In this document: positions 25,480 to 38,499 of the stretch, piece by piece
Layout of the letters: each line of letters opens with the position of its first letter
Numbering within the stretch: the first letter of the stretch is position 1
Source: a virus
Taxonomy: Duplodnaviria > Heunggongvirae > Uroviricota > Caudoviricetes
IMG/VR virus record: IMGVR_UViG_2870479586_000005
DNA length: 42,950 nucleotides
Reading direction: 5' to 3' (one strand)
Notes under the pieces: model-generated
Databases searched by the model: none
What the model saw: only the letters and a program-made list of their open reading frames with translations
What the model was told of the DNA's origin: nothing
Position numbers and translations under genes: made by a program

Positions 25480-26085
25480 ATGCCATCGGATGACGATTTT
25501 AACAGCCGTTTCAAACAGGAAGTTGCACGCCGACTGAAGGATTCCCTCAACCTACACCGTCAGTTAGCAGAAGAGGTTGAGCCGGAGGACGATGAAACTC
25601 CGGTTCAGTCCCCTGATGAAACTTCACCTCTGCAAAAGATTTCGCACGACCCCAAAAAACCATCTGTCCGTATTCACGGAATAGCCAGAAAAAGAGCTGC
25701 CGAAGCTCGCAAAATGGCTGTAGCTGCGTCTAGCAAAAGAACTCCAACTGCTACACCATCTCAACAAGTCACCCGTACTGAGAGTAAAATCTTGACCGAG
25801 TTCACATCTGTGAAACAGGTGAGTTCACTTGATACCGAGCATGAGCGCAAACAACTCAACAACAAAGATTTTGAAGCTGAAATCGCTCTAAAAAAACGCT
25901 ACGGAAAATGGTTCCTGATAATCCTTGCTTGCCAACTTCTGATAATGAATGGGGTATTTATTGCCGACGGCGCAGGTAAGCTGGAATTTGAGGATTTAAC
26001 ACTACAGTTGTACATGGGCGGTACTTTGACAGAGGTATTCGGCCTCGTGCTGGTCGTGACAAAATACCTTTTTAAACGCAAGTAA
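25480..26085 (+). CDS. membrane protein with charged N-terminal region and two C-terminal TM helices
   Basis: 201-aa ORF starting 10 bp after the peptidase stop; C-terminus WFLIILACQLLIMNGVFIA and GGTLTEVFGLVLVVTKYLF are hydrophobic helices. Confidence 0.65.
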   Translation: MPSDDDFNSRFKQEVARRLKDSLNLHRQLAEEVEPEDDETPVQSPDETSPLQKISHDPKKPSVRIHGIARKRAAEARKMAVAASSKRTPTATPSQQVTRTESKILTEFTSVKQVSSLDTEHERKQLNNKDFEAEIALKKRYGKWFLIILACQLLIMNGVFIADGAGKLEFEDLTLQLYMGGTLTEVFGLVLVVTKYLFKRK

Positions 26086-26509
26086 CTCTCTCGGTCCAAC
26101 AGTCTTTCGAAAGCCCTGATCAAAGGGCCTTGATAAATTAGCAGTGCGTTGAAAACAGATAGTTATTCCCATCAGTTCCAACGTAATACACATCAAAAAA
26201 ATCACCATTCTTTTGCTCTACGTCAACACCTACCCTTAAAAAAATAATTCTCCAAGAATGAGAAAGTTATTGTGTGTATTAGATAAGATATGAGCTGACA
26301 CATCTATGGCGTGGAGCCAAACCTAATATGACAGTCCGCTCTGTGCCAAGAGCGAACATTACAAACACACTAAAATTTATGTTTGTACTTCGCTGTAGCC
26401 ACCTAAAAGTATTATTGCGGGTGGTTTCGTGACAATGTTAGATATTCTTCATTTTGAATTGATTACTGAATTAAGATAAAACCACCCGAATTAAAACTAT
26501 CAAAAGTAT

Positions 26510-27391
26510 CTATGGTTGTTCATCACTCTCTTCTGAAAGTATTTGTACTACTTGTCCACACTCTCCACATACTACGTGTAATTGACTATCTTCTTCGGAC
26601 TTGAAAATCTCACTAACTAAGCTATGACAGTTAGGGCATTTTATCTCGTTATCAAAACCTATGAATTTAAGGAATAAGTTTTGAATTAATGAAACTGCAG
26701 TGCAAGTGAGTATAAGGCAAATTTTAGCGTCAGGAATGTTTTTGTTTGAAGAGTGCACCGTCTCTGCGGAAAAATCCCATGCAGACTCAATCGTTGAGCG
26801 GCAATATTTTCTGAGACTTGAGTTTCGTTTTCCTGCGGCATACAACCCAATAATAATTCGGCAAATATTTTTAAAGTCAGCTGCTTTAATATTTTCTTTT
26901 TTTAATATATCCTCATGAGTTTTATAAAGGTGAGCAGCAAGCTCAACCATGCTCTCTCTACAAGTTAGTCCAATACTTTGAATATCTTCAGGGGCCTTAA
27001 TATTATTCAGAGCAACAGCAGAAGCATTTAACCTCCGGCTAATAGAACGAAGCATATCTATATCTAAAGGTAACTCATCAATAACATGTTTGAAATCATT
27101 GCTATGTCTTGCTTGTAGTCTTTGAGTTATACCCAAATGAAAAGAATATGCTTCATCAGCAGAAAAGAAAAACTCATTTTGAGTGTATAAGTTTAAAGGA
27201 ACGTTTTCACCTTCAGCAACCCACCAGTTACCATCATTTTTTGTTCTGACGTTCCAAATGTTAACCTCAAAACCTAAATCATTAAATGTTTGCTCAACTT
27301 GCATGTTTTTTATGTTTTCTATATTTTGAGTTTTTAAATATTCAGTAATTCTTTTCTCAGCATCGATTCTGTATTCTGGTGTCATGTGCAA
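26510..27391 (-). CDS. hypothetical protein with C-terminal zinc ribbon
   Basis: 293-aa ORF in AT-rich DNA; C-terminal CPNC...CGEC four-Cys motif. Confidence 0.55.
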   Translation of the reverse strand: MHMTPEYRIDAEKRITEYLKTQNIENIKNMQVEQTFNDLGFEVNIWNVRTKNDGNWWVAEGENVPLNLYTQNEFFFSADEAYSFHLGITQRLQARHSNDFKHVIDELPLDIDMLRSISRRLNASAVALNNIKAPEDIQSIGLTCRESMVELAAHLYKTHEDILKKENIKAADFKNICRIIIGLYAAGKRNSSLRKYCRSTIESAWDFSAETVHSSNKNIPDAKICLILTCTAVSLIQNLFLKFIGFDNEIKCPNCHSLVSEIFKSEEDSQLHVVCGECGQVVQILSEESDEQP

Positions 27392-27449
27392 TCCCTTTTA
27401 ATAAGATACTAAAAGTAAAAGCGCATTATAGCATAACACATACAATGCG

Positions 27450-27695
27450 TTAATGCGTATGCTTGTGCCCTGTAATGATTTCAAAATGAACGTTTGCATA
27501 CAACTGTTTTTTGATCTGGTTGTATTGCAACAGAATGATTTCCACTGCTCGTTCATAGCTGATCTTCAGTTTAGTTAGCATGTCCGTTCTGTGCCTTTTA
27601 AGTTCATTCTTGCCATACTTAGCCGACTTGAATGCTATTTCTTCTATCACTTTTTTAGTTGGCATATTGGGGCTAGAGTTCCGTTCCTCGCTCAC
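27450..27695 (-). CDS. small hypothetical protein
   Basis: 81-aa ORF (GTG start in track) just upstream of the 293-aa gene; start uncertain. Confidence 0.3.
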   Translation of the reverse strand: MSEERNSSPNMPTKKVIEEIAFKSAKYGKNELKRHRTDMLTKLKISYERAVEIILLQYNQIKKQLYANVHFEIITGHKHTH

Positions 27696-27862
27696 GGCAG
27701 ACCTTAAGCTCAGTTAGTTCGTCTGCTCCGTGCCAGAGCGAACGTTGTAAACACAACATTGCTTTAGTCGACAGGGGCCAATAGGCTACTGCGTACCCTG
27801 TGCTAGAGTAAGTATCAAATAGGTATTATCCATGTATATGACTGCTCGATGATGCATCATAA

Positions 27863-28942
27863 TCACAAACGTTCATGATCAAGACTGTTTTCATCATTAT
27901 TTAAGTCATTAAGCATTTGAAGTGCGTCACGAGTACGTTCATAATTACTTTCAGGGTATAATCTAAACTTCATATTTTCCAAATTAATTAATTTTCTTTT
28001 TAATTTGAAGGAATCGTTAGAAAGTGACATTTCGTAAAAATCAATATCCCCCTGTCTGGATTGTAATGCACTCATAACGGAAAACTTAGCAGATTCTTTG
28101 AACCTCAAACCGAATGTAACATCGCTTAACCGAAATGGTGAGTTCTGTAAACCTTGATTATTAATAACTCGATATTCATTTTCATATTTCCAAGAAGGAG
28201 CTTTGCTGAGAAGAATGACCCTATCAATCTCTTTTTTGGCAGTATTCTTTATATTATCATTGCTGCCAAATAACATATCATGAACTTGTTGAGTTCTAAT
28301 AAATCGATTCCCTTTGTAATCAACTGGATGGATATCTAAAGAGTCATTTTCAGAAGTATCATATCCAATACAAAATCCCTTATGTTGATCAGCATAATGC
28401 GACCACATTAAGGGGCAGTTAAATTTTCTTGCTAATGAAAGAACACCAACCTCATAATTTTTTAGCAAGTATCTTTTAATATAAAAACTGGCGCTAGCAT
28501 AAAAATCATCACCATAATTATCAACATCCCACGAAATATTATCAATTAATTTTCGAGCTTCGCTTTCACCTAGCATTTCAATTTTCTCTAATGTCCTTAG
28601 ACCTTTATATTTAATTTTTTTTGCTGCTTTCGCTAGTTCCTTTTGATGATTTTCTTTTACTAATTTATGAAGGATAGAGTTCAATTCATTGACATTATTG
28701 ATGTCGTTTAACACGGAAGGATTACAATCCAAAGGGTCATTGAATGTTGTTGGATCAGCAAAATACAGTCTATCGCTTACAAGCAAGTCAAGACTATCAA
28801 CACTAAAGCTTTTATATTTATATAATCGAGAGGGAATATTCTGTATCATCACTTTTATCTCATAAATTTTTTTGATATTATCTGCCAATTCTAGCCCCAT
28901 GGGCAATAGCAAAATCGAAAAATACTCTCTACGTAAGGGCAA
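27863..28942 (-). CDS. DUF2971-like protein (candidate defence-associated)
   Basis: 359-aa ORF in AT-rich DNA; RLYKYKSF...LYFADPTTFNDPLDC...PLMWSHYADQHKGFCIGYD...KYENEYRV motifs recalled as DUF2971 hallmarks; start may be at an internal Met. Confidence 0.5.
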   Translation of the reverse strand: MPLRREYFSILLLPMGLELADNIKKIYEIKVMIQNIPSRLYKYKSFSVDSLDLLVSDRLYFADPTTFNDPLDCNPSVLNDINNVNELNSILHKLVKENHQKELAKAAKKIKYKGLRTLEKIEMLGESEARKLIDNISWDVDNYGDDFYASASFYIKRYLLKNYEVGVLSLARKFNCPLMWSHYADQHKGFCIGYDTSENDSLDIHPVDYKGNRFIRTQQVHDMLFGSNDNIKNTAKKEIDRVILLSKAPSWKYENEYRVINNQGLQNSPFRLSDVTFGLRFKESAKFSVMSALQSRQGDIDFYEMSLSNDSFKLKRKLINLENMKFRLYPESNYERTRDALQMLNDLNNDENSLDHERL

Positions 28943-29514
28943 GCCCTTTCCCCATGGATATTCATCAAATTAAGCGGGTGTACTTAGGTCATATTGACCT
29001 GTTCCTAATTGACGATACACCTCGATGTTCATTAAGCCACTTAGAGTGCTGAGACAGATATGAACTGCAGCTTTTCGCTCACTGCTGCCCTTCAGTAAGC
29101 GAAAAAATGCCTACTCGGTGCCATATACAGTCATGGTTATTAACTACAGGGAATAATTCCACACTGAAATTAAATGTCTGCCTTTTACAGTAGAAATAGT
29201 TTCTCCAGGACACTATCCATTGCCGGGCACAATCACTCGGGGTATAACGATATAAAATATGTTCATGATAGTGCAGGTTCGTATATTAAGTTCAGCAGCG
29301 AAAACATGCCTTACAGGTTTCCGGTTTTGGGAGCGTCGTTACAGGATCCTGCGCATACCGTTCCCATCTGTTGAATTAAAGGTTTCACAGCCTTTGCCGA
29401 TATCGCCTTTTACCTTGCCTGTGATGCGTTCAGTGCTCAGCGTTGTTTACTGTAGCTCTCGGAACTGATTACAGACCGCGTCTTAAAAACCAATCCTTAC
29501 TCTAAAGGGAATTC

Positions 29515-30438
29515 ATGAGATTAAAATACTCAGTACTCTTACTCGCCATTGCCCTTACAGGCTGTGATAACAAAAAAGATGAGATCGGTTGTTCTTCGGA
29601 AATGACCCAATCAGCTCTCATGGATTTATTAAAAAAATCTGCTTATGAAGGACTCTCTGAACAGGTCGATAAATACCCTGATGTCACTAATCAGACCAAA
29701 CGAAGCACACTGGACAAGATCAAACTAGCCGTCTCTGAAATCTCCACAACATCAAGTGACACGGGCAGCACAATGAAAACTTGTGAAGGGACCGTGACGA
29801 TGACTCTACCTGCGAACGAGTACGTCCAGCTTTCAGATGCTTACAGAAAGAATTTTAATCGTAATCTCGACAAGCAAATGGAAAGCCTGTTTTTGGAGAA
29901 CAACGCAAACGCCTTTTCCAAACGTATCACCTACACCGTGCAGGCGACCGACGATCAGAAAAACGTTTTTGTAAAAACCTCTTCTGATAATCCGATATCA
30001 GTGGGCGCCGCTTTACTGACATCACTTTCTATTATCAACCCGATCGTTGAGCAGCAGAAAATCCAGCAGGCTAAGGATGCCCAACAGAGCCAAATTGAAG
30101 CGGAACAACAGGTGCAACTCAGGGCGCAGGAACAGGCTAAGTATGAGGCGGAGAAGCAAATAGAGAGACAGGCACAACTTCAGCCACAAAAAGCTGACAG
30201 CCTTGATCAGTCCCGAATGGCATTTGCGAATGCCGACTCTGATTTGAGTACCGTCTGGAGCAAGTTAACCCCGGCGAAGAAAAAAGATTTGCTGCCTTCT
30301 CAGCGTCAGTGGATCAAAACTAAGGATGCTATGTGCGGTAAAGTTTCAATGCAGGGAACAGATGCTGAAGTCAAGAAAATGCTCGACTGCCAGACGCAAA
30401 TGACCCTTTCAAGAATCGCTTTCCTCAGAAACCAATAA
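29515..30438 (+). CDS. lipoprotein with C-terminal LprI/DUF1311-like domain
   Basis: 307-aa ORF; signal peptide plus lipobox (LLLAIALTGC); Gln-rich coiled region; C-terminal QRQWIKTKDAMCG...KMLDCQT...RIAFL resembles lysozyme-inhibitor LprI-type domains. Confidence 0.65.
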   Translation: MRLKYSVLLLAIALTGCDNKKDEIGCSSEMTQSALMDLLKKSAYEGLSEQVDKYPDVTNQTKRSTLDKIKLAVSEISTTSSDTGSTMKTCEGTVTMTLPANEYVQLSDAYRKNFNRNLDKQMESLFLENNANAFSKRITYTVQATDDQKNVFVKTSSDNPISVGAALLTSLSIINPIVEQQKIQQAKDAQQSQIEAEQQVQLRAQEQAKYEAEKQIERQAQLQPQKADSLDQSRMAFANADSDLSTVWSKLTPAKKKDLLPSQRQWIKTKDAMCGKVSMQGTDAEVKKMLDCQTQMTLSRIAFLRNQ

Positions 30439-30612: not shown

Positions 30613-31401
30613 TCAAAATGCTGAATCAGCAACAGATACAGCCGACTTTTTCCCCATTACCATCAATTTATCCAGTGTCATACTTCGCAGATTGTCGCTG
30701 TGGATCACCAGATACCCTGCCCGCTCAGCGATCTCTTTGAAAGCGTCAAAGGTCATCAGATGTTCGCCTTTGGCAACATGGCGCATCCTTGTCACTTTTC
30801 CATTTTTGATAGTGGTGATAAAAGAAAAATCCGGAATGGTTGGCTGATTTTCATCGAGTAGCAGGCAGTGGATGTATTCAATCGCCTCTAACATTTGCGT
30901 CTGTGACAGTTGTTCTATGTGAGAGACGGCGAAGCGTTGATGAATCATGGTGTAGGCATCGGGATACATCATGCCTTTCTTACCGACCAGCATATTAACG
31001 GCATCACGTAAGGGAGTACGGTCATCGGTAGTTGTACTCCGCCTCTCTGGGCGCTGGCTAAAATAACAATCTTCAAGCTTTTCGAAAACTTCCCAAGCCT
31101 GTTCTGTTTCCAGCATTTTGGCATGGCGAGCTGCGCCGCGTTCTGTCCAGAGAATGAGGGATCGGGTATGTTTAGCAACTGACTGACTATCTGTCAGTCT
31201 GTTTTTGAAGTCGCGTAATTCATTACCTTCCAGCTTAAAAAAATGCTTTCCTACGACAAATCTGGCGATGTTGCGCTTGAAGTTTTGCTGGATACCATTT
31301 ACTTCCGTGCCATACAAACTGGCAAGCAATTCAGTAGTGATGACGGGAAGTTGGTTATGATGTAGCGGAGAAAGGGATTCCGCAGATATTTGGATTGTCA
31401 T
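30613..31401 (-). CDS. phage antirepressor (AntA/ORF6N-type N-terminus)
   Basis: Track ORF 30613-31449; ATG at 31401 has a GAGG Shine-Dalgarno; antirepressor-like character judged from recall. Confidence 0.6.
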   Translation of the reverse strand: MTIQISAESLSPLHHNQLPVITTELLASLYGTEVNGIQQNFKRNIARFVVGKHFFKLEGNELRDFKNRLTDSQSVAKHTRSLILWTERGAARHAKMLETEQAWEVFEKLEDCYFSQRPERRSTTTDDRTPLRDAVNMLVGKKGMMYPDAYTMIHQRFAVSHIEQLSQTQMLEAIEYIHCLLLDENQPTIPDFSFITTIKNGKVTRMRHVAKGEHLMTFDAFKEIAERAGYLVIHSDNLRSMTLDKLMVMGKKSAVSVADSAF

Positions 31402-31431
31402 CGCAGTGGCCTCACTTAGTGTTTTTTTCAT

Positions 31432-31462
31432 CACCACCAGCGACGCCAATCATCTGGTGGTG
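31432..31462. promoter_or_regulatory. perfect 9-bp inverted repeat (candidate operator of the antirepressor gene)
   Basis: CACCACCAG (31432-31440), 13-bp spacer, CTGGTGGTG (31454-31462), immediately upstream of the antirepressor start codons. Confidence 0.45.
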
Positions 31463-31673
31463 AACTGTGCAGGGTTGGCGTAACCGGCTAAGTGAACCCG
31501 GCGCTTCCGCAGAAGCCCCCACACAGCCCACCATAATGCGAATGTGGCCGTGCCTAACACATAAAAAAACCGCTAACGCGGCTATGCGTCACTTAGATAT
31601 CCGGGACGCCAATCCCGGCAACCGATTTTGCGGCTGCGCGGAAACTATAGCCCCGGGCTTTTTCTAAGTCAAT

Positions 31674-33297: not shown

Positions 33298-34689
33298 TTA
33301 AAATGGGTCCGTATTAAAGTTTTTGTTTGAATACCGTTTTTCACGTTTTCTCGGTTGCTCTGCCTCCTTCTGGATGCGTAATTTTTCGCGTGCTACGTGT
33401 TGATCAACTGGCAGGAAATGCCCATTCCGGAATTCCTGATAAATAATTTCACCTGCCCCGCCAGAACGGTTTTTACCGATAATCACCTCGGCGATACCCT
33501 TTGCAGGTGAATCAGGTGTGTAAACTTCATCGCGGTACAAAAACAAAATGCTGTCAGCGTCCTGCTCAACACTGCCGGAATCGCGCAGGTCCGACATCAC
33601 CGGGCGACGCTGGCCAGCAGGTCGAGAATCCACCTGGCGGGAAAGCTGGCTAAGAGCAAAAACAGGGGTATGCAGACGCATGGCCATAGTCTTCATGTTG
33701 CGGGAGATATGCCCGACAGCGAGATCGTGGCGCTCGGCCTTCGGTTTTTTGATCAGGCCCATGTAATCAACACCAATCAACTTCAGGTGCGGATAACGGC
33801 GTTTATGAGTCTCTGCAATGGCGCGGATCTGCTCAATCGTCAAATCAGTGGCATCAACAATCCAGATATCGCGATCCTGCATGATTGCAAGCGCGGCGGT
33901 TAATCTGGTCAAATCCTCATCGTCCATTTCTTTTGGATTACGCAGACGCGACGTGGACATATTCCCAGCCCCGGCAACGGTACGTTCAACAATCTGCTGA
34001 GCGCCCATTTCCATGCTGAAAAACAGTGCGCCGCCGCCATCTGCGGTAACGCCATCGATAATCTTCAGGGTAAATTCCGTTTTCCCCATGCCTGGACGAC
34101 CGGCAACCACAACAAGGTCGGTCATGTTGATACCGCCCAGGGCGACATCCAGATCCTCGACTCCGGTTTTCAGCATCATTTCCTGCGCGTCGCCAGACAT
34201 CCGTTTATCAACGGTGTCAATGTAGAGCGGTAACAGCTCTTTGATGTGTACCGGCTGGACTGTGCCGGTAGCGGCGCTCATATCCAGCACCTGAGCAACA
34301 TGAGATTCAATAACCTCATCACGCTGACTCTGGTTTACAGCGTTACGGATACCATCCGCGCCAGATTGCAACAATGCCGCCATTTTGCGGCTCCGCCATG
34401 CCCGCACCATTTTCCCGGCATAGCCTTTCAGATTCGGTACCGTTGCCGGGATCCGGGATATTTGAGACAGATCCGCAAGGCTGGAACCGCCCAGCGCTTC
34501 GCTGATAAACAACATGTCGATCATGCCGTTCGCCAGTGCCTGCTTTTTGATTTCGCTGAAAGCGCGACGGTGAAACACGATGCTGAAGGCTTCCTCCGGA
34601 GTAGTGGCAATCACATCAAACGCGTCAGGCGTCGCGCCACCGTTAATCAGACCAGCGAGAACGATCGCTTCCAGTTCTTCTGGATTCAT
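33298..34689 (-). CDS. replicative DNA helicase (DnaB-like)
   Basis: 463-aa ORF; Walker A GRPGMGKT, Walker B-like IWIVD context, DnaB-type C-terminal motifs; follows the O-like gene. Confidence 0.85.
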   Translation of the reverse strand: MNPEELEAIVLAGLINGGATPDAFDVIATTPEEAFSIVFHRRAFSEIKKQALANGMIDMLFISEALGGSSLADLSQISRIPATVPNLKGYAGKMVRAWRSRKMAALLQSGADGIRNAVNQSQRDEVIESHVAQVLDMSAATGTVQPVHIKELLPLYIDTVDKRMSGDAQEMMLKTGVEDLDVALGGINMTDLVVVAGRPGMGKTEFTLKIIDGVTADGGGALFFSMEMGAQQIVERTVAGAGNMSTSRLRNPKEMDDEDLTRLTAALAIMQDRDIWIVDATDLTIEQIRAIAETHKRRYPHLKLIGVDYMGLIKKPKAERHDLAVGHISRNMKTMAMRLHTPVFALSQLSRQVDSRPAGQRRPVMSDLRDSGSVEQDADSILFLYRDEVYTPDSPAKGIAEVIIGKNRSGGAGEIIYQEFRNGHFLPVDQHVAREKLRIQKEAEQPRKREKRYSNKNFNTDPF

Positions 34690-35786
34690 AATGCCCCTTC
34701 CCTGGTTTTACGCAGTGTTTCTGGCTTCATCAGGTAATCAAACCCTGCCCGCCAGCCGGTGCGATATTCGCCGCCGAAATAGAAGTCTGGGGCGTTATCG
34801 CGGAATTTTTCGAAGTAGCCGATAAATGCGCCAAGAGTTTGCGTGCGCATATGTGCCAGCAGGCGCAGGATTGCCCGACGGCGGTCAGTATCAATTTCAG
34901 CTATAGGTAGCAGGTCGCCCAGAATCTCGTTGTAGCCCTTCACAACTTCAGCAGGGTCAACGGCAGCCTCAGCAGTGGCCCACGTCTCAGCGTCAGCCAG
35001 GTATCCGTCAAACCGGTTTACGCGGCAAATGTTCGCAGGTTTCGGAACGCTTCCGCTACGACGGCGCCATGTCGCAATAACCCAACGAATTACTAACTGA
35101 ATCTCAGCCACGCTGTAACCAGCGCGGGTGGTGGTGGCAGTTAGCAGCATGACAAACGGTTTAACGTCGCGGCAGCGGGTACCGACTTTCTCGTTGTAGT
35201 AGTTCAGAGCTTTTTGAGCGTCAGCGAGAATGATTTCCTCGCCCTCCCCCTTTTGGGGGTAAGGGGGATCTTTTATCTCTGTAGTACTCTCTGTTGTATT
35301 CTCTGTAGGAGATTGGGTCATTTTGACCTTAGCGCATGGGTCAACTTGACCTGATGCTTGGGTCACATTGACCTCTTCGATTGGGTCAACTTGACCTAAT
35401 CGATTGGCCACAGGGAATGTTGTCTCTTCAATCTTACATAACTGGGCATAATTGATTGAATACCACTTGGTTTTATCCCAGGCATCACTGTTAAAGTTCC
35501 CAGTAAGCAACACATTCAATTTTTCCAGATTGGCCAACACGCGTTTTATTGTCGACTCGCTCCAGAACGGGAATTGTTCTTGCCAGTCGGTCACACTGTT
35601 GTACACCCAGTGGCGATTTTCGAAGAAATTTTGAGACGAATTCAGCCAGTAGTGGATTTGCTGTAGAACGATGGCTTCATTCAACCCTATAGTGCATGCC
35701 AACGTGGGCAGGACCTGAAGGGGGTTTTCGTTAATCAGCAAACGACTCATACTCAGATCTCCAGAGCTTCGGCTATCTGACGACAA
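34686..35786 (-). CDS. replication initiation protein (lambda O-like) containing the origin iterons
   Basis: 366-aa ORF; four iterons lie inside the coding sequence (each translated as the GQVDP repeat), as in lambda O/ori; coupled to the helicase gene. Confidence 0.6.
   Translation of the reverse strand: MSSDSRSSGDLSMSRLLINENPLQVLPTLACTIGLNEAIVLQQIHYWLNSSQNFFENRHWVYNSVTDWQEQFPFWSESTIKRVLANLEKLNVLLTGNFNSDAWDKTKWYSINYAQLCKIEETTFPVANRLGQVDPIEEVNVTQASGQVDPCAKVKMTQSPTENTTESTTEIKDPPYPQKGEGEEIILADAQKALNYYNEKVGTRCRDVKPFVMLLTATTTRAGYSVAEIQLVIRWVIATWRRRSGSVPKPANICRVNRFDGYLADAETWATAEAAVDPAEVVKGYNEILGDLLPIAEIDTDRRRAILRLLAHMRTQTLGAFIGYFEKFRDNAPDFYFGGEYRTGWRAGFDYLMKPETLRKTREGAL
35331..35418. repeat. origin iterons (4 copies of an 18-19-bp palindromic unit)
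   Basis: TTGGGTCAACTTGACCT-like units, each an inverted repeat GGGTCA-N2-4-TGACC; adjacent 3x TCTCTGT(A/T)G direct repeat at 35276-35311. Confidence 0.7.
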
Positions 35787-35977
35787 CCGGCTTCATAGTC
35801 CGCATTGCTCAGCCCTTTGTCGCGCAACTCGACCTTCCTGGATTCATACTGCTCCCACACCGAAAGCGCGGCAGCCATACGCCCATCAAAAATAGGTTGG
35901 ATCTCTGCAACATGTGCCGGGCGCCCATTCAGGTGCCAGCCGTTACGCCAGGTAATGCGGTCAATATGTCTTAACAT
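35753..35977 (-). CDS. hypothetical protein
   Basis: 74-aa ORF between the YdaT-like and O-like genes. Confidence 0.3.
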   Translation of the reverse strand: MLRHIDRITWRNGWHLNGRPAHVAEIQPIFDGRMAAALSVWEQYESRKVELRDKGLSNADYEAGCRQIAEALEI

Positions 35978-36016
35978 CGGTCTTTCCTCGGTATAAGTTA
36001 AACGCTGGTCAGGCGC

Positions 36017-36493
36017 TCATGCATGGTGGCCTTGCGCAGTGCTTATCACTGCTCCTCGCGTCGCTACCAGCGCCGCTATTGCTTCGTCAATTTCCTGAAT
36101 AGTTAACTCTGGCGCGAAGTGGAGATGTACAGCGTTAATCGCTTCCACCCCTTCTTTTGCCGCCAGCGTTGCCAGCAAAACGGGATCGCCCGGCGACTCC
36201 AGACGCGCCCGCCGTTCTGCGGGTAGCACTGCTTTCATCACACTGGCCAGCACCTGAGTTTTTCGGCGCGCCGCCGTTGTCTCGCCACGTAACCAGCGAA
36301 AGATTTTCTGCCGGTTGTTGTTGATGGCTCTCCAGTCCACGTTGCCGTCCGTGTCCTCAAATTCATGTAGTCTCAACTCATCATTGCGTCCCTGACTGAA
36401 CCAGGCCCGGCAGATTTCAATCGTGACGAGTTCCTGCCCTGCCCTTGCCGCCCAGGTCAAAATCTCTTTTTGTAATTCCTCTTGGTTTTCCAT
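36017..36493 (-). CDS. YdaT-like regulator (CII-analogue position)
   Basis: 158-aa ORF; NNNRQKIFRWLRGETTAARRKTQVL recalls Rac YdaT (WLKGET region); second gene of the cro-side operon. Confidence 0.55.
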   Translation of the reverse strand: MENQEELQKEILTWAARAGQELVTIEICRAWFSQGRNDELRLHEFEDTDGNVDWRAINNNRQKIFRWLRGETTAARRKTQVLASVMKAVLPAERRARLESPGDPVLLATLAAKEGVEAINAVHLHFAPELTIQEIDEAIAALVATRGAVISTAQGHHA

Positions 36494-36552
36494 AGCGTCT
36501 CCTGTCGCTAAAAATTGATTACGCTTAATCAGATGTAATAAGCCGCCTTTTG

Positions 36553-36750
36553 CTAAGCTTTTTCATGTTTTGGAACATCGTAAAAAGTCGGGTCATATTT
36601 CAGTGCTCCATTAGTGATATGGTCGAGTCGAGCTGCTCGCTTTTCAGGAACTGTTGCCCCCCAACGAGTAACCGCCACTTGTGATATACCCAGCACCTTG
36701 GCTGTGGCTGTCTTTGAACCAAAAAAACTAATAACCGTCTCTGTTTTCAT
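36553..36750 (-). CDS. Cro/YdaS-like HTH regulator
   Basis: 65-aa ORF with an HTH (TATAKVLGISQVAVTRW); divergent from the repressor gene. Confidence 0.65.
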   Translation of the reverse strand: MKTETVISFFGSKTATAKVLGISQVAVTRWGATVPEKRAARLDHITNGALKYDPTFYDVPKHEKA

Positions 36751-36818: not shown

Positions 36819-37232
36819 ATGAGGATGAAAAATTTGATGCTTAGCGACCGTTTATCTCAAAGACGCAAACAGCTTGGTCTAACCCAACAACAGCTTGCTG
36901 ATATGGTTGGAAGATCGAGTGTGAGCGTTTTTAAATGGGAAAGCGGACAAAATGAACCAAAGGGCCAGAACTTGTTGGCTTTGGCCAATGCACTCAAGTG
37001 TTCTGCCACATGGCTGCTTTTTGGTGACGAAGACCAGGCGCCAACTCCGGTAGACGAATTACCAACAGAGCTGGATTCACGTCAAAAAAGATTGTTAGAG
37101 TTATTTGATTCATTACCCGAGTCAGAAAAAGAAAAGCAACTAATTGAATTAGAAGATAAAGTTGAAAACTTTAATCGTTTATTTGAAGAGTTACTGGTTA
37201 CCAGAAAGAAACTAACCCCCACCAAAAAATAA
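36819..37232 (+). CDS. XRE-family HTH repressor (CI analogue lacking S24 peptidase domain)
   Basis: 137-aa ORF; HTH (LTQQQLADMVGRSSVSVFKWESG) then a coiled, acidic C-terminus; no Ser/Lys autoprotease motifs seen. Confidence 0.7.
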   Translation: MRMKNLMLSDRLSQRRKQLGLTQQQLADMVGRSSVSVFKWESGQNEPKGQNLLALANALKCSATWLLFGDEDQAPTPVDELPTELDSRQKRLLELFDSLPESEKEKQLIELEDKVENFNRLFEELLVTRKKLTPTKK

Positions 37233-37235
37233 AAT

Positions 37236-37270
37236 AAAGGCAATGTTTTCAATGCATTGCCTTTATTTTT
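37236..37270 (+). terminator. rho-independent terminator after the repressor gene
   Basis: AAAGGCAATG-9 nt loop-CATTGCCTTT followed by ATTTTT, starting 4 nt after the stop. Confidence 0.65.
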
Positions 37271-38178
37271 ACCCCAAATACTAACTTTTGTTATAAAACA
37301 TCTTGCACATAAAATTACCTTTAGTTATATTCATTCCATCAACAACGCTTACCCAGCGGCAGTTGTTCAGAAACACGTTCTGACAGCCGGAAAGACGGCA
37401 CCAAATTTTGCGCGTCGGCGCCAACACGGTGACAGAGGGAAAGACTTCACCGGCATATGGCACATGTGTCGAAGCGGTCTGGATGGAAGCGGAGCCTTAA
37501 CGCGTTGTCTCCATAGCAGGTAGCCGGAATGTGCAAGCCACAGCCAGGTATGAGCGATTGATTCACCATCAAGGCGATACGGTGTGACCACCAGGGAAGA
37601 GTCCTGGCTACAACACGAGAGCGCACTTCATCGACTCAACTTTGAGCTTTGTCGTTAAATTTTGAAATGGCGGAGTGCGCTCCCGGTTGTGGTGAACAGG
37701 TGTTTAACGGGAACTCCCTGCCCGTTACCCGGTTCGATTCCGGGCGCCCATCATCAATTTGCTGTGTTTAGTCTTTGCCCAGTCCGCACGATGGGCCATT
37801 TTTTCACACAGCCAGGTTTTATCGCTGTGCCTGAGTCCCCAACAGGAGAGGCCAAACCCGCAGCGTGACACCAGGGAAAGACCGGAGGAAGTACCACGCC
37901 TGACCAGCGTTGACCATGAGCCTGACCAGCTCAAAACAGGAAAGACCAGCCCTGTACGGTCGTAATGGAAACATAACGACGCCGGAAACGTAACCGGCAC
38001 CCTTTAGATAGCAAAAGACCCGCACAAGGCGGGCCAGTTACCCCGAACGGCGACCAAACCATTCGGATTTATCACAAGTGACCAAACTTGTGATGAGGAA
38101 AGACCAACGACACTGACGCTATGGAAGCTGATCAATATTCGCTGATCGGCTCTGAGTATACATTACCAAGGAGTCGCT

Positions 38179-38499
38179 ATGGAAGCGCGCACCATCCCAG
38201 TAACACTCTTTATTCATTATGCAACTTCAACTTTCAGCCACGAAAAGCTGCTTGTTGCGACGGTTGATATGTCAAAAAATTTTCCAGACAGGTACATCCT
38301 TCTGGAAAGCCGCGAAATTGAAATTACCGTCAACCAGCCCCAGCCAATCGACATCATCGGTTTACAGGTCGAGCAGCTGCATGAGCAAAAACAGAAAACA
38401 GCCGCCGACGCCCAACAGCGTATTGCTGCTATCGATGACGAAATCCAGCAGTTACTTTGCATCGAATACACGCCAGATACCGATGAAATCCCCTACTAA
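38179..38499 (+). CDS. hypothetical early-left protein
   Basis: 106-aa ORF with AAGGAG Shine-Dalgarno. Confidence 0.4.
   Translation: MEARTIPVTLFIHYATSTFSHEKLLVATVDMSKNFPDRYILLESREIEITVNQPQPIDIIGLQVEQLHEQKQKTAADAQQRIAAIDDEIQQLLCIEYTPDTDEIPY

What the first reader, a model, noticed from the sequence alone, without database searches (positions are those of the whole stretch)
35276..35418. Replication origin embedded in the O-like gene
Four palindromic iterons (GGGTCA-N-TGACC cores) are translated as a repeated GQVDP peptide in the initiator, followed by a 3x TCTCTGT(A/T)G repeat. This is the lambda ori-in-O arrangement with different iteron sequences, so the replicon specificity is distinct.
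Basis: partly seen in the sequence, partly recalled or inferred. Interest (0 to 1): 0.35.

Follow-up and report, generated by a model that had tools for sequence, protein, structure and literature searches.

The report
Prophage replication origin inside initiator gene
The repeats are real and are almost certainly the replication origin of an E. coli prophage, written into the floppy linker of its own initiator gene as in phages lambda and P22: an ordinary arrangement, but one that uses a widespread, unstudied initiator family.

Summary
Four 13-bp palindromic cores (GGTCAnnnTGACC; spacing 23, 22, 23 bp) and three 12-bp TCTCTGTAGTAC repeats lie at 35276-35407. They are the only tandem arrays in the window.

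They sit inside a minus-strand gene (34686-35750, 354 aa; NCBI names close homologues "RepO") of an E. coli prophage. That gene is followed by an overlapping DnaB-type helicase gene.

The repeats encode exactly the predicted disordered linker (residues 114-169), between a winged-helix N-terminal domain and a helical C-terminal domain.

Selection acts on the DNA, not the peptide:
- The iteron motif is read in all three frames across relatives.
- Synonymous-codon identity rises from about 0.2-0.55 to 0.86-1.0 over codons 109-174, while amino-acid identity there stays at about 0.5-0.7.
- Iteron number varies (2, 4 or 6) among near-identical prophages.

Modules swap as in lambdoid phages. The N-terminal domain, iterons and 12-mers travel together. 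The C-terminal domain, a small palindrome and the helicase travel together.

The closest model is P22 genes 18/12 (C-terminus 38% identical, helicase 46%). The N-terminal domain is not the lambda O/P22 type (no PF04492 match).

The same iteron and an ACAGAGA 12-mer recur in Staphylococcus, Bacillus and Listeria phages.

Verdict: a new member of a known kind. No experiment exists yet.

The parts
34686..35750 (-). Replication initiator gene (354 aa; PGAP WP_021560866.1 'hypothetical protein'; close homologues are named 'replication protein RepO'). The ATG at 35750 lies 2 nt after the stop of the upstream ORF. The stop overlaps the helicase start (ATGA).
   Evidence: ORF list. PHROG 428 'replication initiation protein', E=5e-73. 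100% identical in an E. coli chromosome. Names given by sources.
35421..35750 (-). N-terminal winged-helix domain (aa 1-110), the presumed iteron-binding module. It has no Pfam model.
   Evidence: AF2 pLDDT 80-93 with an H-H...H-H-E-E topology. The best Foldseek matches are winged-helix DNA binders, including plasmid RepA_N 4pql, but none reaches E<1e-3. No Pfam hit at E<=10. 2,344 homologues.
35244..35411 (-). Codons 114-169: the predicted disordered linker that carries all the cis elements.
   Evidence: pLDDT below 50 for residues 114-169. Synonymous-codon identity 0.86-1.0 over codons 109-174, against 0.1-0.56 elsewhere.
35311..35407 (.). Iteron array: four 22-23-bp units with palindromic cores GGTCA-nnn-TGACC at 35316-28, 35339-51, 35361-73 and 35384-96.
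   Evidence: Family-wide positional enrichment of 190 hits in nt 300-500 of rep, against about 0.03 per 100 nt elsewhere. Read in three frames. Copy-number variants with 2, 4 or 6 iterons.
35276..35311 (.). Three tandem 12-mers (TCTCTGTAGTAC on the + strand, (T/A)ACAGAGAnTAC on the coding strand). Proposed unwinding or strand-recognition element.
   Evidence: 35267-35302 is tied for the least stable 36-bp duplex of 33298-36500. Codon bias inside versus outside the element. Conserved across phyla and across initiator families.
35245..35268 (.). Inverted repeat TCCCCCTT / AAGGGGGA (inner CCCCC-TTTT-GGGGG) at the linker/C-terminal-domain boundary. It travels with the C-terminal domain and helicase module.
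   Evidence: I9. Hairpin dG -10.2 kcal/mol, z -3.3. Present in L004, L085 and L012-L017, which have different N-terminal domains. Covered by the synonymous-site conservation peak.
34689..35243 (-). C-terminal helical domain (aa 170-354). Its last ~92 aa are homologous to the C-terminus of P22 gp18. Presumed helicase-recruiting module.
   Evidence: 38% identity, E=6e-18. PHROG 345 'O-like', aa 260-353. Co-inherited with the helicase in 13 of 14 loci.
33298..34689 (-). DnaB-type replicative helicase gene (463 aa), translationally coupled to rep.
   Evidence: Pfam DnaB_C 2e-69 and DnaB N-terminal domain. 46% identical to P22 gp12, E=7e-137.
35753..36750 (-). Upstream genes of the same rightward-type early operon: cro-like (36553-36750), cII-like/YdaT (36017-36493) and a 74-aa ORF (35753-35977). 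A sigma-70-like promoter lies at 36805-36777, and a divergent cI-like repressor at 36819-37232 (+).

Best explanation
This is the vegetative replication origin of a lambdoid E. coli prophage, embedded in the linker-coding part of its own initiator gene.

Proposed mechanism:
1. After induction, the early operon is transcribed and makes the initiator (Rep) and a phage DnaB-type helicase.
2. Dimers of the Rep winged-helix N-terminal domain bind the four palindromic iterons. The iterons are spaced about two helical turns apart, so the dimers sit on one face of the DNA and form an O-some-like complex.
3. This complex strains and opens the adjacent low-stability segment that carries the three ACAGAGA 12-mers.
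4. The Rep C-terminal domain recruits the phage helicase onto the opened DNA.
5. Host primase and Pol III then take over.

What is shown here:
- the anatomy of the locus;
- the domain layout of the protein;
- DNA-level selection on the repeat region;
- co-inheritance of the modules;
- homology of the C-terminal domain and the helicase to P22 gp18 and gp12.

What is inferred:
- binding of the N-terminal domain to the iterons;
- unwinding at the 12-mers;
- contact between the C-terminal domain and the helicase.
For: Anatomy:
- The iterons, the 12-mers and the palindrome are the only tandem arrays in the window.
- They sit at the same gene position as the annotated lambda iterons and the P22 gene 18 repeats.

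Protein:
- A confident winged-helix N-terminal domain, a disordered stretch at residues 114-169 that matches the repeat-coding DNA, and a helical C-terminal domain.

DNA-level selection:
- The iteron motif is read in frames 0, 2 and 1 (99, 66 and 13 instances). TGA is changed to TGG or CGA only in the frame where it would be a stop codon.
- Synonymous-codon identity is 0.86-1.0 across codons 109-174, against 0.1-0.56 in both domains, while amino-acid identity there is only about 0.5-0.7.
- Inside the 12-mers, Glu is GAG in 34 of 39 codons against 91 of 262 outside. Thr is ACA or ACT in 47 of 49 against 104 of 210 outside. This holds even in phages of 33-35% GC.

Module logic:
- Klebsiella phages have the same N-terminal domain, the same iterons and identical 12-mers, but a different C-terminal domain and no helicase.
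- A Stenotrophomonas phage and Klebsiella RepO have the same C-terminal domain, palindrome and helicase, but different N-terminal domains and different 23-bp iterons.
- This C-terminal domain is followed by a closely related helicase in 13 of 14 loci.

Other:
- Iteron copy number is 2, 4 or 6 among near-identical prophages, as with lambda versus Stx phages (PMC7466680).
- 35267-35302 is tied for the least stable duplex of the region.
- The C-terminus is homologous to P22 gp18 (E=6e-18) and the helicase to gp12 (E=7e-137).
Against: - There is no experimental evidence for this family. Literature searches by motif and by topic found nothing.
- The segment next to the iterons is only moderately AT-rich (about 62% A+T). 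A second, equally unstable segment lies on the other side of the iterons, at 35427-35462, so the unwinding site is not pinned down.
- The structural matches of the N-terminal domain are generic winged-helix folds with E>0.08.
- The 12-mer always lies in the Thr-Glu reading frame except in some Bacillus variants, so some peptide-level constraint cannot be excluded.
- The codon statistics pool related sequences, so they overstate independence.
Confidence: 0.8

Rival explanations
1. The repeats are Rep-binding sites used mainly for regulation: autorepression by roadblock, copy control or handcuffing, or titration. Strand opening and helicase loading happen at another site.
For: In iteron plasmids the same sites serve both control and initiation (established knowledge). 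A second low-stability segment lies on the far side of the iterons. Nothing here maps a replication start.
Against: No other repeat array exists anywhere in the window. The position and order of elements copy those of the mapped lambda origin, and P22 gene 18 shows the same layout. A sequence-conserved element and the duplex-stability minimum abut the iterons.
Confidence: 0.1
2. The DNA conservation reflects a different cis function placed in the rep linker. Candidates are a homologous-recombination 'linker' that promotes module exchange between phages, or an antisense terminator or RNA element.
For: Module junctions fall exactly at the 12-mer/palindrome boundary. The palindrome followed by a T-run scores as an intrinsic terminator on the antisense strand.
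Against: Recombination junctions explain where the breakpoints fall, not purifying selection across phyla. The palindromic, helically phased iterons co-vary with the DNA-binding domain. Terminator-like sites in this region are no more frequent than in shuffled sequence (7 found against 6.6 expected).
Confidence: 0.06
3. The repeats are just an in-frame duplicated peptide repeat in a low-complexity linker and have no function as DNA.
For: The 45-bp unit is in frame. The region encodes a disordered, Thr/Glu-rich peptide.
Against: The same DNA motif is read in three frames, giving unrelated peptides (GQNDP, VKMT, RSKWH). Synonymous sites are frozen while amino acids vary. Each unit is a palindrome. 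Rare codons (ACA, GAG, CCC, GGG) are fixed even in low-GC hosts.
Confidence: 0.02

Closest known systems
Phage P22 replication module (gene 18 initiator with internal ori, plus gene 12 DnaB-type helicase)
   Same: - An initiator gene immediately followed by its own DnaB-like helicase.
- The helicase is 46% identical to gp12 (E=7e-137).
- The last 92 aa of the initiator are 38% identical to gp18 (E=6e-18).
- Four iterons begin at about nt 352-354 of the gene and are followed by short tandem purine-rich repeats: 2 x 14 bp ACAAAAGACAATAT in P22, 3 x 12 bp here.
- Both lie in a cro / cII-like / rep / helicase operon.
   Different: - The N-terminal origin-binding domain is unrelated at the sequence level: PF04492 matches gp18 but not this protein.
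- The iteron sequence differs: GGTCAnnnTGACC here, TTTACCnnATCGGTAAA-type in P22.
- This protein has an extra ~90-residue N-terminal part of the C-terminal domain (aa 170-260) and a GC palindrome at the domain boundary.
Phage lambda ori within gene O (O/P system)
   Same: - Four iterons with dyad symmetry in the middle of the initiator gene (annotated at gene nt 349-433), then an easily melted purine-rich tract, then a palindrome (PMC7466680).
- The region encodes the inter-domain linker.
- Iteron number varies between relatives: 4 in lambda against 6 in Stx phages, and 2, 4 or 6 here.
   Different: - No significant protein similarity to O (best E=0.13).
- No P-type loader that hijacks host DnaB; the phage brings its own helicase.
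- The tract after the iterons is only about 62% A+T, but its sequence is conserved as 12-mers.
Iteron-type theta replicons of plasmids with winged-helix Rep proteins. This includes Gram-positive RepA_N plasmids, whose origin lies inside the rep gene (from established knowledge).
   Same: - A winged-helix initiator binding directly repeated sites next to an unwinding element that carries short repeats.
- The RepA_N N-terminal domain (4pql) and a Rep-DNA complex (5kbj) are among the best, though weak, structural matches.
   Different: - No significant sequence or fold-search match (all E>0.08).
- Each iteron here is itself a palindrome, implying dimer binding as with lambda O rather than monomer binding to asymmetric iterons.
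- The genetic context is a phage early operon.
'DnaD-like helicase loader / replication initiation protein' of Staphylococcus, Bacillus and Listeria siphoviruses (PHROG 6493 / 428)
   Same: - The same N-terminal domain, 50-62% identical.
- The same iteron motif GGTCAAAATGACC just after the domain, and the same ACAGAGA element.
   Different: - The C-terminal domains are DnaD (PF07261) or Phg_2220_C (PF09524) types rather than P22 gp18-like.
- Their partner proteins differ.
- I found no origin study for these phages either.

Membership tests
Lambda O / P22 gp18 initiator family (Pfam PF04492 Phage_rep_O) | N-terminal origin-binding domain matches PF04492 | tested here: not met
   hmmscan finds no Pfam family at E<=10 for the N-terminal domain or the whole protein, while lambda O (5.7e-36) and P22 gp18 (6.9e-38) match in the same run. 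BLASTP against lambda O gives E=0.13.
Lambda O / P22 gp18 initiator family (Pfam PF04492 Phage_rep_O) | C-terminal domain homologous to that of O or gp18 | tested here: met
   The last 92 aa are 38% identical to the P22 gp18 C-terminus, E=6e-18. PHROG 345 'replication initiation O-like' matches aa 260-353, E=1.8e-23. The match is to gp18; it is not detectable against lambda O itself.
Lambdoid 'ori inside the initiator gene' origins | An array of three or more dyad-symmetric iterons, about two helical turns apart, in the linker-coding middle of the initiator gene | tested here: met
   The position matches lambda and P22.
Lambdoid 'ori inside the initiator gene' origins | An easily unwound AT-rich tract directly downstream of the iterons in gene orientation | tested here: inconclusive
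   35267-35302 is tied for the least stable 36-bp duplex of the region (dG -40.9 against a mean of -50.9, sd 3.8). However, A+T is only about 62%, and a second minimum lies on the other side of the iterons.
Lambdoid 'ori inside the initiator gene' origins | The initiator binds the iterons, and the fragment supports initiator-dependent replication | not testable with these tools
   Needs EMSA or footprinting and a plasmid replication assay. There is only indirect support, from co-variation of the N-terminal domain with the iterons.
P22-type initiator-helicase replication module | A phage-encoded DnaB-family helicase gene directly downstream of, and co-inherited with, the initiator C-terminal domain | tested here: met
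   Pfam DnaB_C 2e-69. 46% identity to gp12. Overlapping stop and start codons. 13 of 14 loci with this C-terminal domain carry the helicase.
PHROG 428 / NCBI 'RepO' winged-helix initiators | Full-length profile match and close named homologues | tested here: met
   PHROG 428 E=5.3e-73 over aa 4-353. A 98%-identical cluster is named 'replication protein RepO'. No NCBIfam HMM hit.

The most novel reading that the evidence does not exclude
The 12-nt ACAGAGA-nTAC repeat may be a previously undescribed, sequence-specific origin element shared across bacterial phyla by a very large superfamily of phage initiators.

- It sits directly after ~23-bp-period iteron arrays of many different sequences.
- It is kept at the DNA level, as shown by fixed rare codons, frame-shifted variants that preserve the DNA, and frozen synonymous sites.
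- It is independent of which C-terminal domain or helicase partner the initiator uses.

It would then act as a conserved strand-specific recognition or helicase-loading site, comparable to the DnaA-trio or ssDUE sites of chromosomes and plasmids, rather than as a merely AT-rich unwinding tract. The lambda and P22 'ACAAAAGAC' repeats could be its diverged counterparts.
Probability: 0.4. Interest if true: 0.6.

Novelty: new member of a known kind. Interest (0 to 1): 0.4.

Why it matters
For this locus, the result turns a PGAP "hypothetical protein" into an initiator with a precisely delimited origin. The region that matters is 35229-35426, about 200 bp.

It also defines replicon specificity. Prophages with this N-terminal domain and iteron set should be mutually incompatible or cross-activating, and independent of lambda- or P22-type replicons.

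More broadly, this locus is a clean example of how overlapping constraints are resolved. The cis elements are parked in a disordered linker, the iteron is tolerated in all three reading frames, and its TGA is edited only where it would stop translation.

The cross-phylum identity of the iteron and the 12-mer offers a ready-made, testable handle on how phage origins are opened.

Tried and rejected
- Pfam and NCBIfam scans of the initiator gave no hit, even at E<=10.
- A sequence search of PDB chains gave no hit.
- Foldseek against the PDB gave only generic winged-helix matches, none with E<1e-3. No specific structural family can be claimed.
- Literature searches found nothing on this family. 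I searched by exact iteron and 12-mer DNA words, by the TENTTE/TEITTE peptides, and by topic.
- DnaA boxes: none near the origin. GATC sites are not enriched.
- Purine/pyrimidine strand asymmetry of the 12-mer region is unremarkable (10th percentile). I dropped it as an argument.
- I looked for a natural plasmid using this Rep as its sole replicon. The family occurs on 89 PLSDB records. The smallest one examined (16.4 kb, Bacillus weihaiensis) also encodes a Replic_Relax protein and an FtsK-like protein, so it is not decisive.
- I considered whether primase recognition trinucleotides, DnaA-trios or the DnaD recognition element explain the 12-mer. None fitted convincingly, by inspection only.
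- I considered recent recombination as the cause of the DNA identity peak and rejected it. Amino-acid identity is lowest exactly where synonymous identity is highest.

Full report
**What is there**

The window is an E. coli prophage. The stretch 34686-35786 is 100% identical to several complete E. coli chromosomes and is present in 75 of 5,426 genomes.

The finding lies inside a minus-strand gene, 34686-35750 (354 aa). PGAP calls it "hypothetical protein" in the identical genome. Close homologues are named "replication protein RepO".

In gene orientation the layout is as follows.
- Codons 1-110 encode the N-terminal domain.
- Four 22-23-bp units follow. Each has a palindromic 13-bp core GGTCA-nnn-TGACC, at + strand coordinates 35384-96, 35361-73, 35339-51 and 35316-28.
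- Three tandem 12-mers follow ((T/A)ACAGAGAnTAC; 35311-35276).
- Next come a short A/T stretch and an inverted repeat TCCCCCTT/AAGGGGGA (35268-35245).
- The C-terminal domain follows.

The two arrays are the only tandem repeats in the 42,950-bp window. The iteron clustering is far beyond chance. The in-frame unit is 45 bp and holds two iterons, so only iterons 1 and 3 read GQVDP. Iterons 2 and 4 read VNVT and VKMT.

**Gene context**

The gene sits in a typical lambdoid early operon. A divergent cI-like repressor and a sigma-70-like promoter come first. Then follow a cro-like gene, a cII-like/YdaT gene, a 74-aa ORF and rep (ATG 2 nt after the preceding stop). Last is a DnaB-type helicase whose ATG overlaps the rep stop codon.

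**Protein architecture**

An AlphaFold2 model built on a 46-sequence alignment gives three parts:
- a confident N-terminal winged-helix-like domain (residues 1-110, pLDDT 80-93);
- a stretch with pLDDT below 50 at residues 114-169;
- a helical C-terminal domain (170-354).

The low-confidence stretch is exactly the part encoded by the iterons, the 12-mers and the palindrome. Foldseek against the PDB returns only generic winged-helix DNA-binding proteins. Plasmid RepA_N (4pql) and a Rep-DNA complex (5kbj) are among them, but none reaches significance. I therefore claim no more than "winged-helix-like". Neither domain has a Pfam or NCBIfam model. PHROG 428, "replication initiation protein", matches the full length.

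**Selection acts on the DNA, not the peptide**

There are four independent lines.

1. Reading frames. I compared 52 dereplicated relatives fetched through the N-terminal domain alone. The motif GGTCAAAATGACC (up to 3 mismatches) occurs 3.7 times per locus in nt 300-500 of rep, against about 0.03 per 100 nt elsewhere. It is read in all three frames: 99 times as G-Q-x-D-P, 66 times as x-V-x-M-T and 13 times as R-S-K-W-H. In the third frame, where TGA would be a stop codon, the half-site is changed to TGG or CGA.

2. Synonymous sites. I compared this gene codon by codon with three relatives about 71% identical in protein. Synonymous-codon identity is 0.1-0.56 throughout both domains. It is 0.86-1.00 over codons 109-174 (window about 35229-35426). 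Amino-acid identity is at its lowest there, about 0.5-0.7. This is the signature of purifying selection on DNA overlapping a weakly constrained peptide. It argues against recent recombination.

3. Codon choice inside the 12-mers. Glu is GAG in 34 of 39 codons, against 91 of 262 outside. Thr is ACA or ACT in 47 of 49 codons, against 104 of 210 outside. This includes Staphylococcus and Bacillus phages of 33-35% GC. The sequences are related, so the P values overstate independence. Bacillus variants read ENTQR(V/L) and keep ACAGAGA through a local frame shift.

4. Copy number. Among near-identical E. coli prophages the arrays vary: 2 iterons (339-aa P0122), 4 (this one), 6 (L005), and 4 rather than 3 12-mers (L009). 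Lambda and Stx phages differ in the same way, with 4 and 6 iterons (PMC7466680).

**Module logic**

Megablast of the whole gene against 50,697 phage records hits only the repeat region.

- Those Klebsiella phages carry the same N-terminal domain family (47% identity), five to six GGTCAAA-type iterons and an identical 33-nt 12-mer block. Their C-terminal domain is unrelated, and no helicase lies next door.
- A Stenotrophomonas phage (HTH_36 N-terminal domain) and the common Klebsiella RepO (a third N-terminal type) show the converse. Both carry this C-terminal domain at about 71-72% identity. Both also carry the same palindrome and a helicase about 76% identical. Their ~23-bp iterons are quite different: CCTATGCCGCCAAAAAGCATAGCC and CCGCAAACAAGGATGCGGAAAAA.
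- Across the loci, this C-terminal domain is followed by the helicase in 13 of 14 cases. The exception is a truncated contig.

So specificity (N-terminal domain plus iterons) and replisome recruitment (C-terminal domain plus helicase) are separable. Each travels with its partner, as classically described for lambdoid phages.

**Comparison with the models**

*Lambda.* In the lambda record the four iterons are annotated at gene nt 349-433. A purine-rich AT tract and a palindrome follow them. BLASTP against lambda O is not significant (E=0.13).

*P22.* Gene 18 has four 20-nt repeats at nt 352-438, followed by two 14-bp ACAAAAGACAATAT repeats. Here the iterons start at nt 354.

*Homology.* The last 92 residues are 38% identical to P22 gp18 (E=6e-18). 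The helicase is 46% identical to P22 gp12 (E=7e-137). PF04492, the N-terminal domain of lambda O and P22 gp18, does not match this protein.

The best description is therefore a P22-type initiator-helicase module. Its origin-recognition half has been replaced by a different winged-helix domain with its own iterons.

**Unwinding element**

The 36 bp at 35267-35302 (the A/T stretch plus 12-mers) is tied for the least stable duplex between 33298 and 36500 (dG -40.9 against a mean of -50.9, sd 3.8). However, a second equal minimum lies just upstream of the iterons, at 35427-35462, and A+T is only about 62%. There are no DnaA boxes nearby. Assigning the 12-mers as the unwinding or strand-recognition element is an inference from position, conservation and analogy.

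**Breadth of the family**

The N-terminal domain family has at least 2,344 members at E<1e-5. It occurs in phages of Staphylococcus, Bacillus, Listeria, Lactobacillus, Klebsiella, Pseudomonas, Bacteroides and others. The Staphylococcus, Bacillus and Listeria members, 50-62% identical, use essentially the same iteron.

I also searched IMG/VR for the 12-mer pair alone. It returned at least 120 loci. In 72 of the 80 loci retrieved and examined, it lies in the Thr-Glu frame at about residue 130-200 of Rep-like ORFs. The upstream repeat peptides of those ORFs differ widely. For 59 of 71 of these, the 105 nt upstream has a best self-period of 23 bp. The mean self-match is 0.55, against 0.34 in a coding control.

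The 12-mer is thus a general post-iteron element of a large initiator superfamily. It is absent from the HTH_36-type relatives. I found no description of it in the searchable literature. That library lacks most subscription-journal papers, so this is weak evidence of novelty.

**Verdict**

The feature is a new, uncharacterised member of a well-known kind of origin. Its function remains to be shown experimentally.

Noticed in passing
window 31453-31650 (-): Rfam matches above gathering score to isrK Hfq-binding sRNA (31563-31637), C4 antisense RNA (31453-31538) and its a1/b1 target (31598-31650). They lie directly upstream of an ORF6N-domain (antirepressor-type) gene at 30613-31449 (-). This looks like a P1/P7-style antisense-controlled antirepressor (immI-like) module in this lambdoid prophage.
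   Followed up: no
window 35245-35278 (+ strand): The conserved GC palindrome, followed by TCTTTTATCT, scores as an intrinsic terminator on the strand antisense to rep (hairpin dG -10.2 kcal/mol, z -3.3). On the sense strand there is no T-run. It could shield the origin from convergent transcription, or it could be coincidental, since terminator-like sites in the region are not above shuffled expectation. Its inner part CCCCCAAAAGGGGGA also resembles a lambda iteron (ATCCCTCAAAACAGGGGGA).
   Followed up: partly
protein P0196 (Klebsiella pasteurii, 436 aa): A RepO homologue with an HNH endonuclease domain (PF01844) inserted between the N-terminal domain and the TEITTEIT / DPPNPQ linker, that is, at or beside the presumed origin. 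It may be a homing-endonuclease-like insertion into an initiator gene.
   Followed up: no
L208 (phage P22) 1699-1726, gene 18: P22 gene 18 carries two perfect-to-near-perfect 14-bp direct repeats, ACAAAAGACAATAT/A, immediately after its four iterons. Lambda has the related ACAAAAGACAC...ACAAAAGAAAA at the same place. These may be diverged counterparts of the ACAGAGA 12-mers.
   Followed up: partly
window 37250-38180: About 900 bp beyond the cI-like repressor has no ORF of 100 aa or more. It holds three terminator-like hairpins on the minus strand (37944-38035) and the window's only DnaA-box-like match (37800-37808). Its nature was not examined.
   Followed up: no
window 26000-30000: A low-GC island (34-38% GC against about 50% in neighbouring prophage DNA). 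In the identical genome it encodes an LprI-family lysozyme-inhibitor protein (window 29515-30438). It is likely a moron or cargo insertion.
   Followed up: no
L209 (Bacillus weihaiensis plasmid NZ_CP016021.1) 1798-2628 (-): A 16.4-kb circular plasmid carries a Rep of this family with degenerate GGACAAATTGACC-type repeats and a CCAGAGAATAATACAGAGAAT element. It also encodes an integrase, an FtsK-like protein and a Replic_Relax protein. It may be a small element replicating from an in-gene origin of this type.
   Followed up: partly
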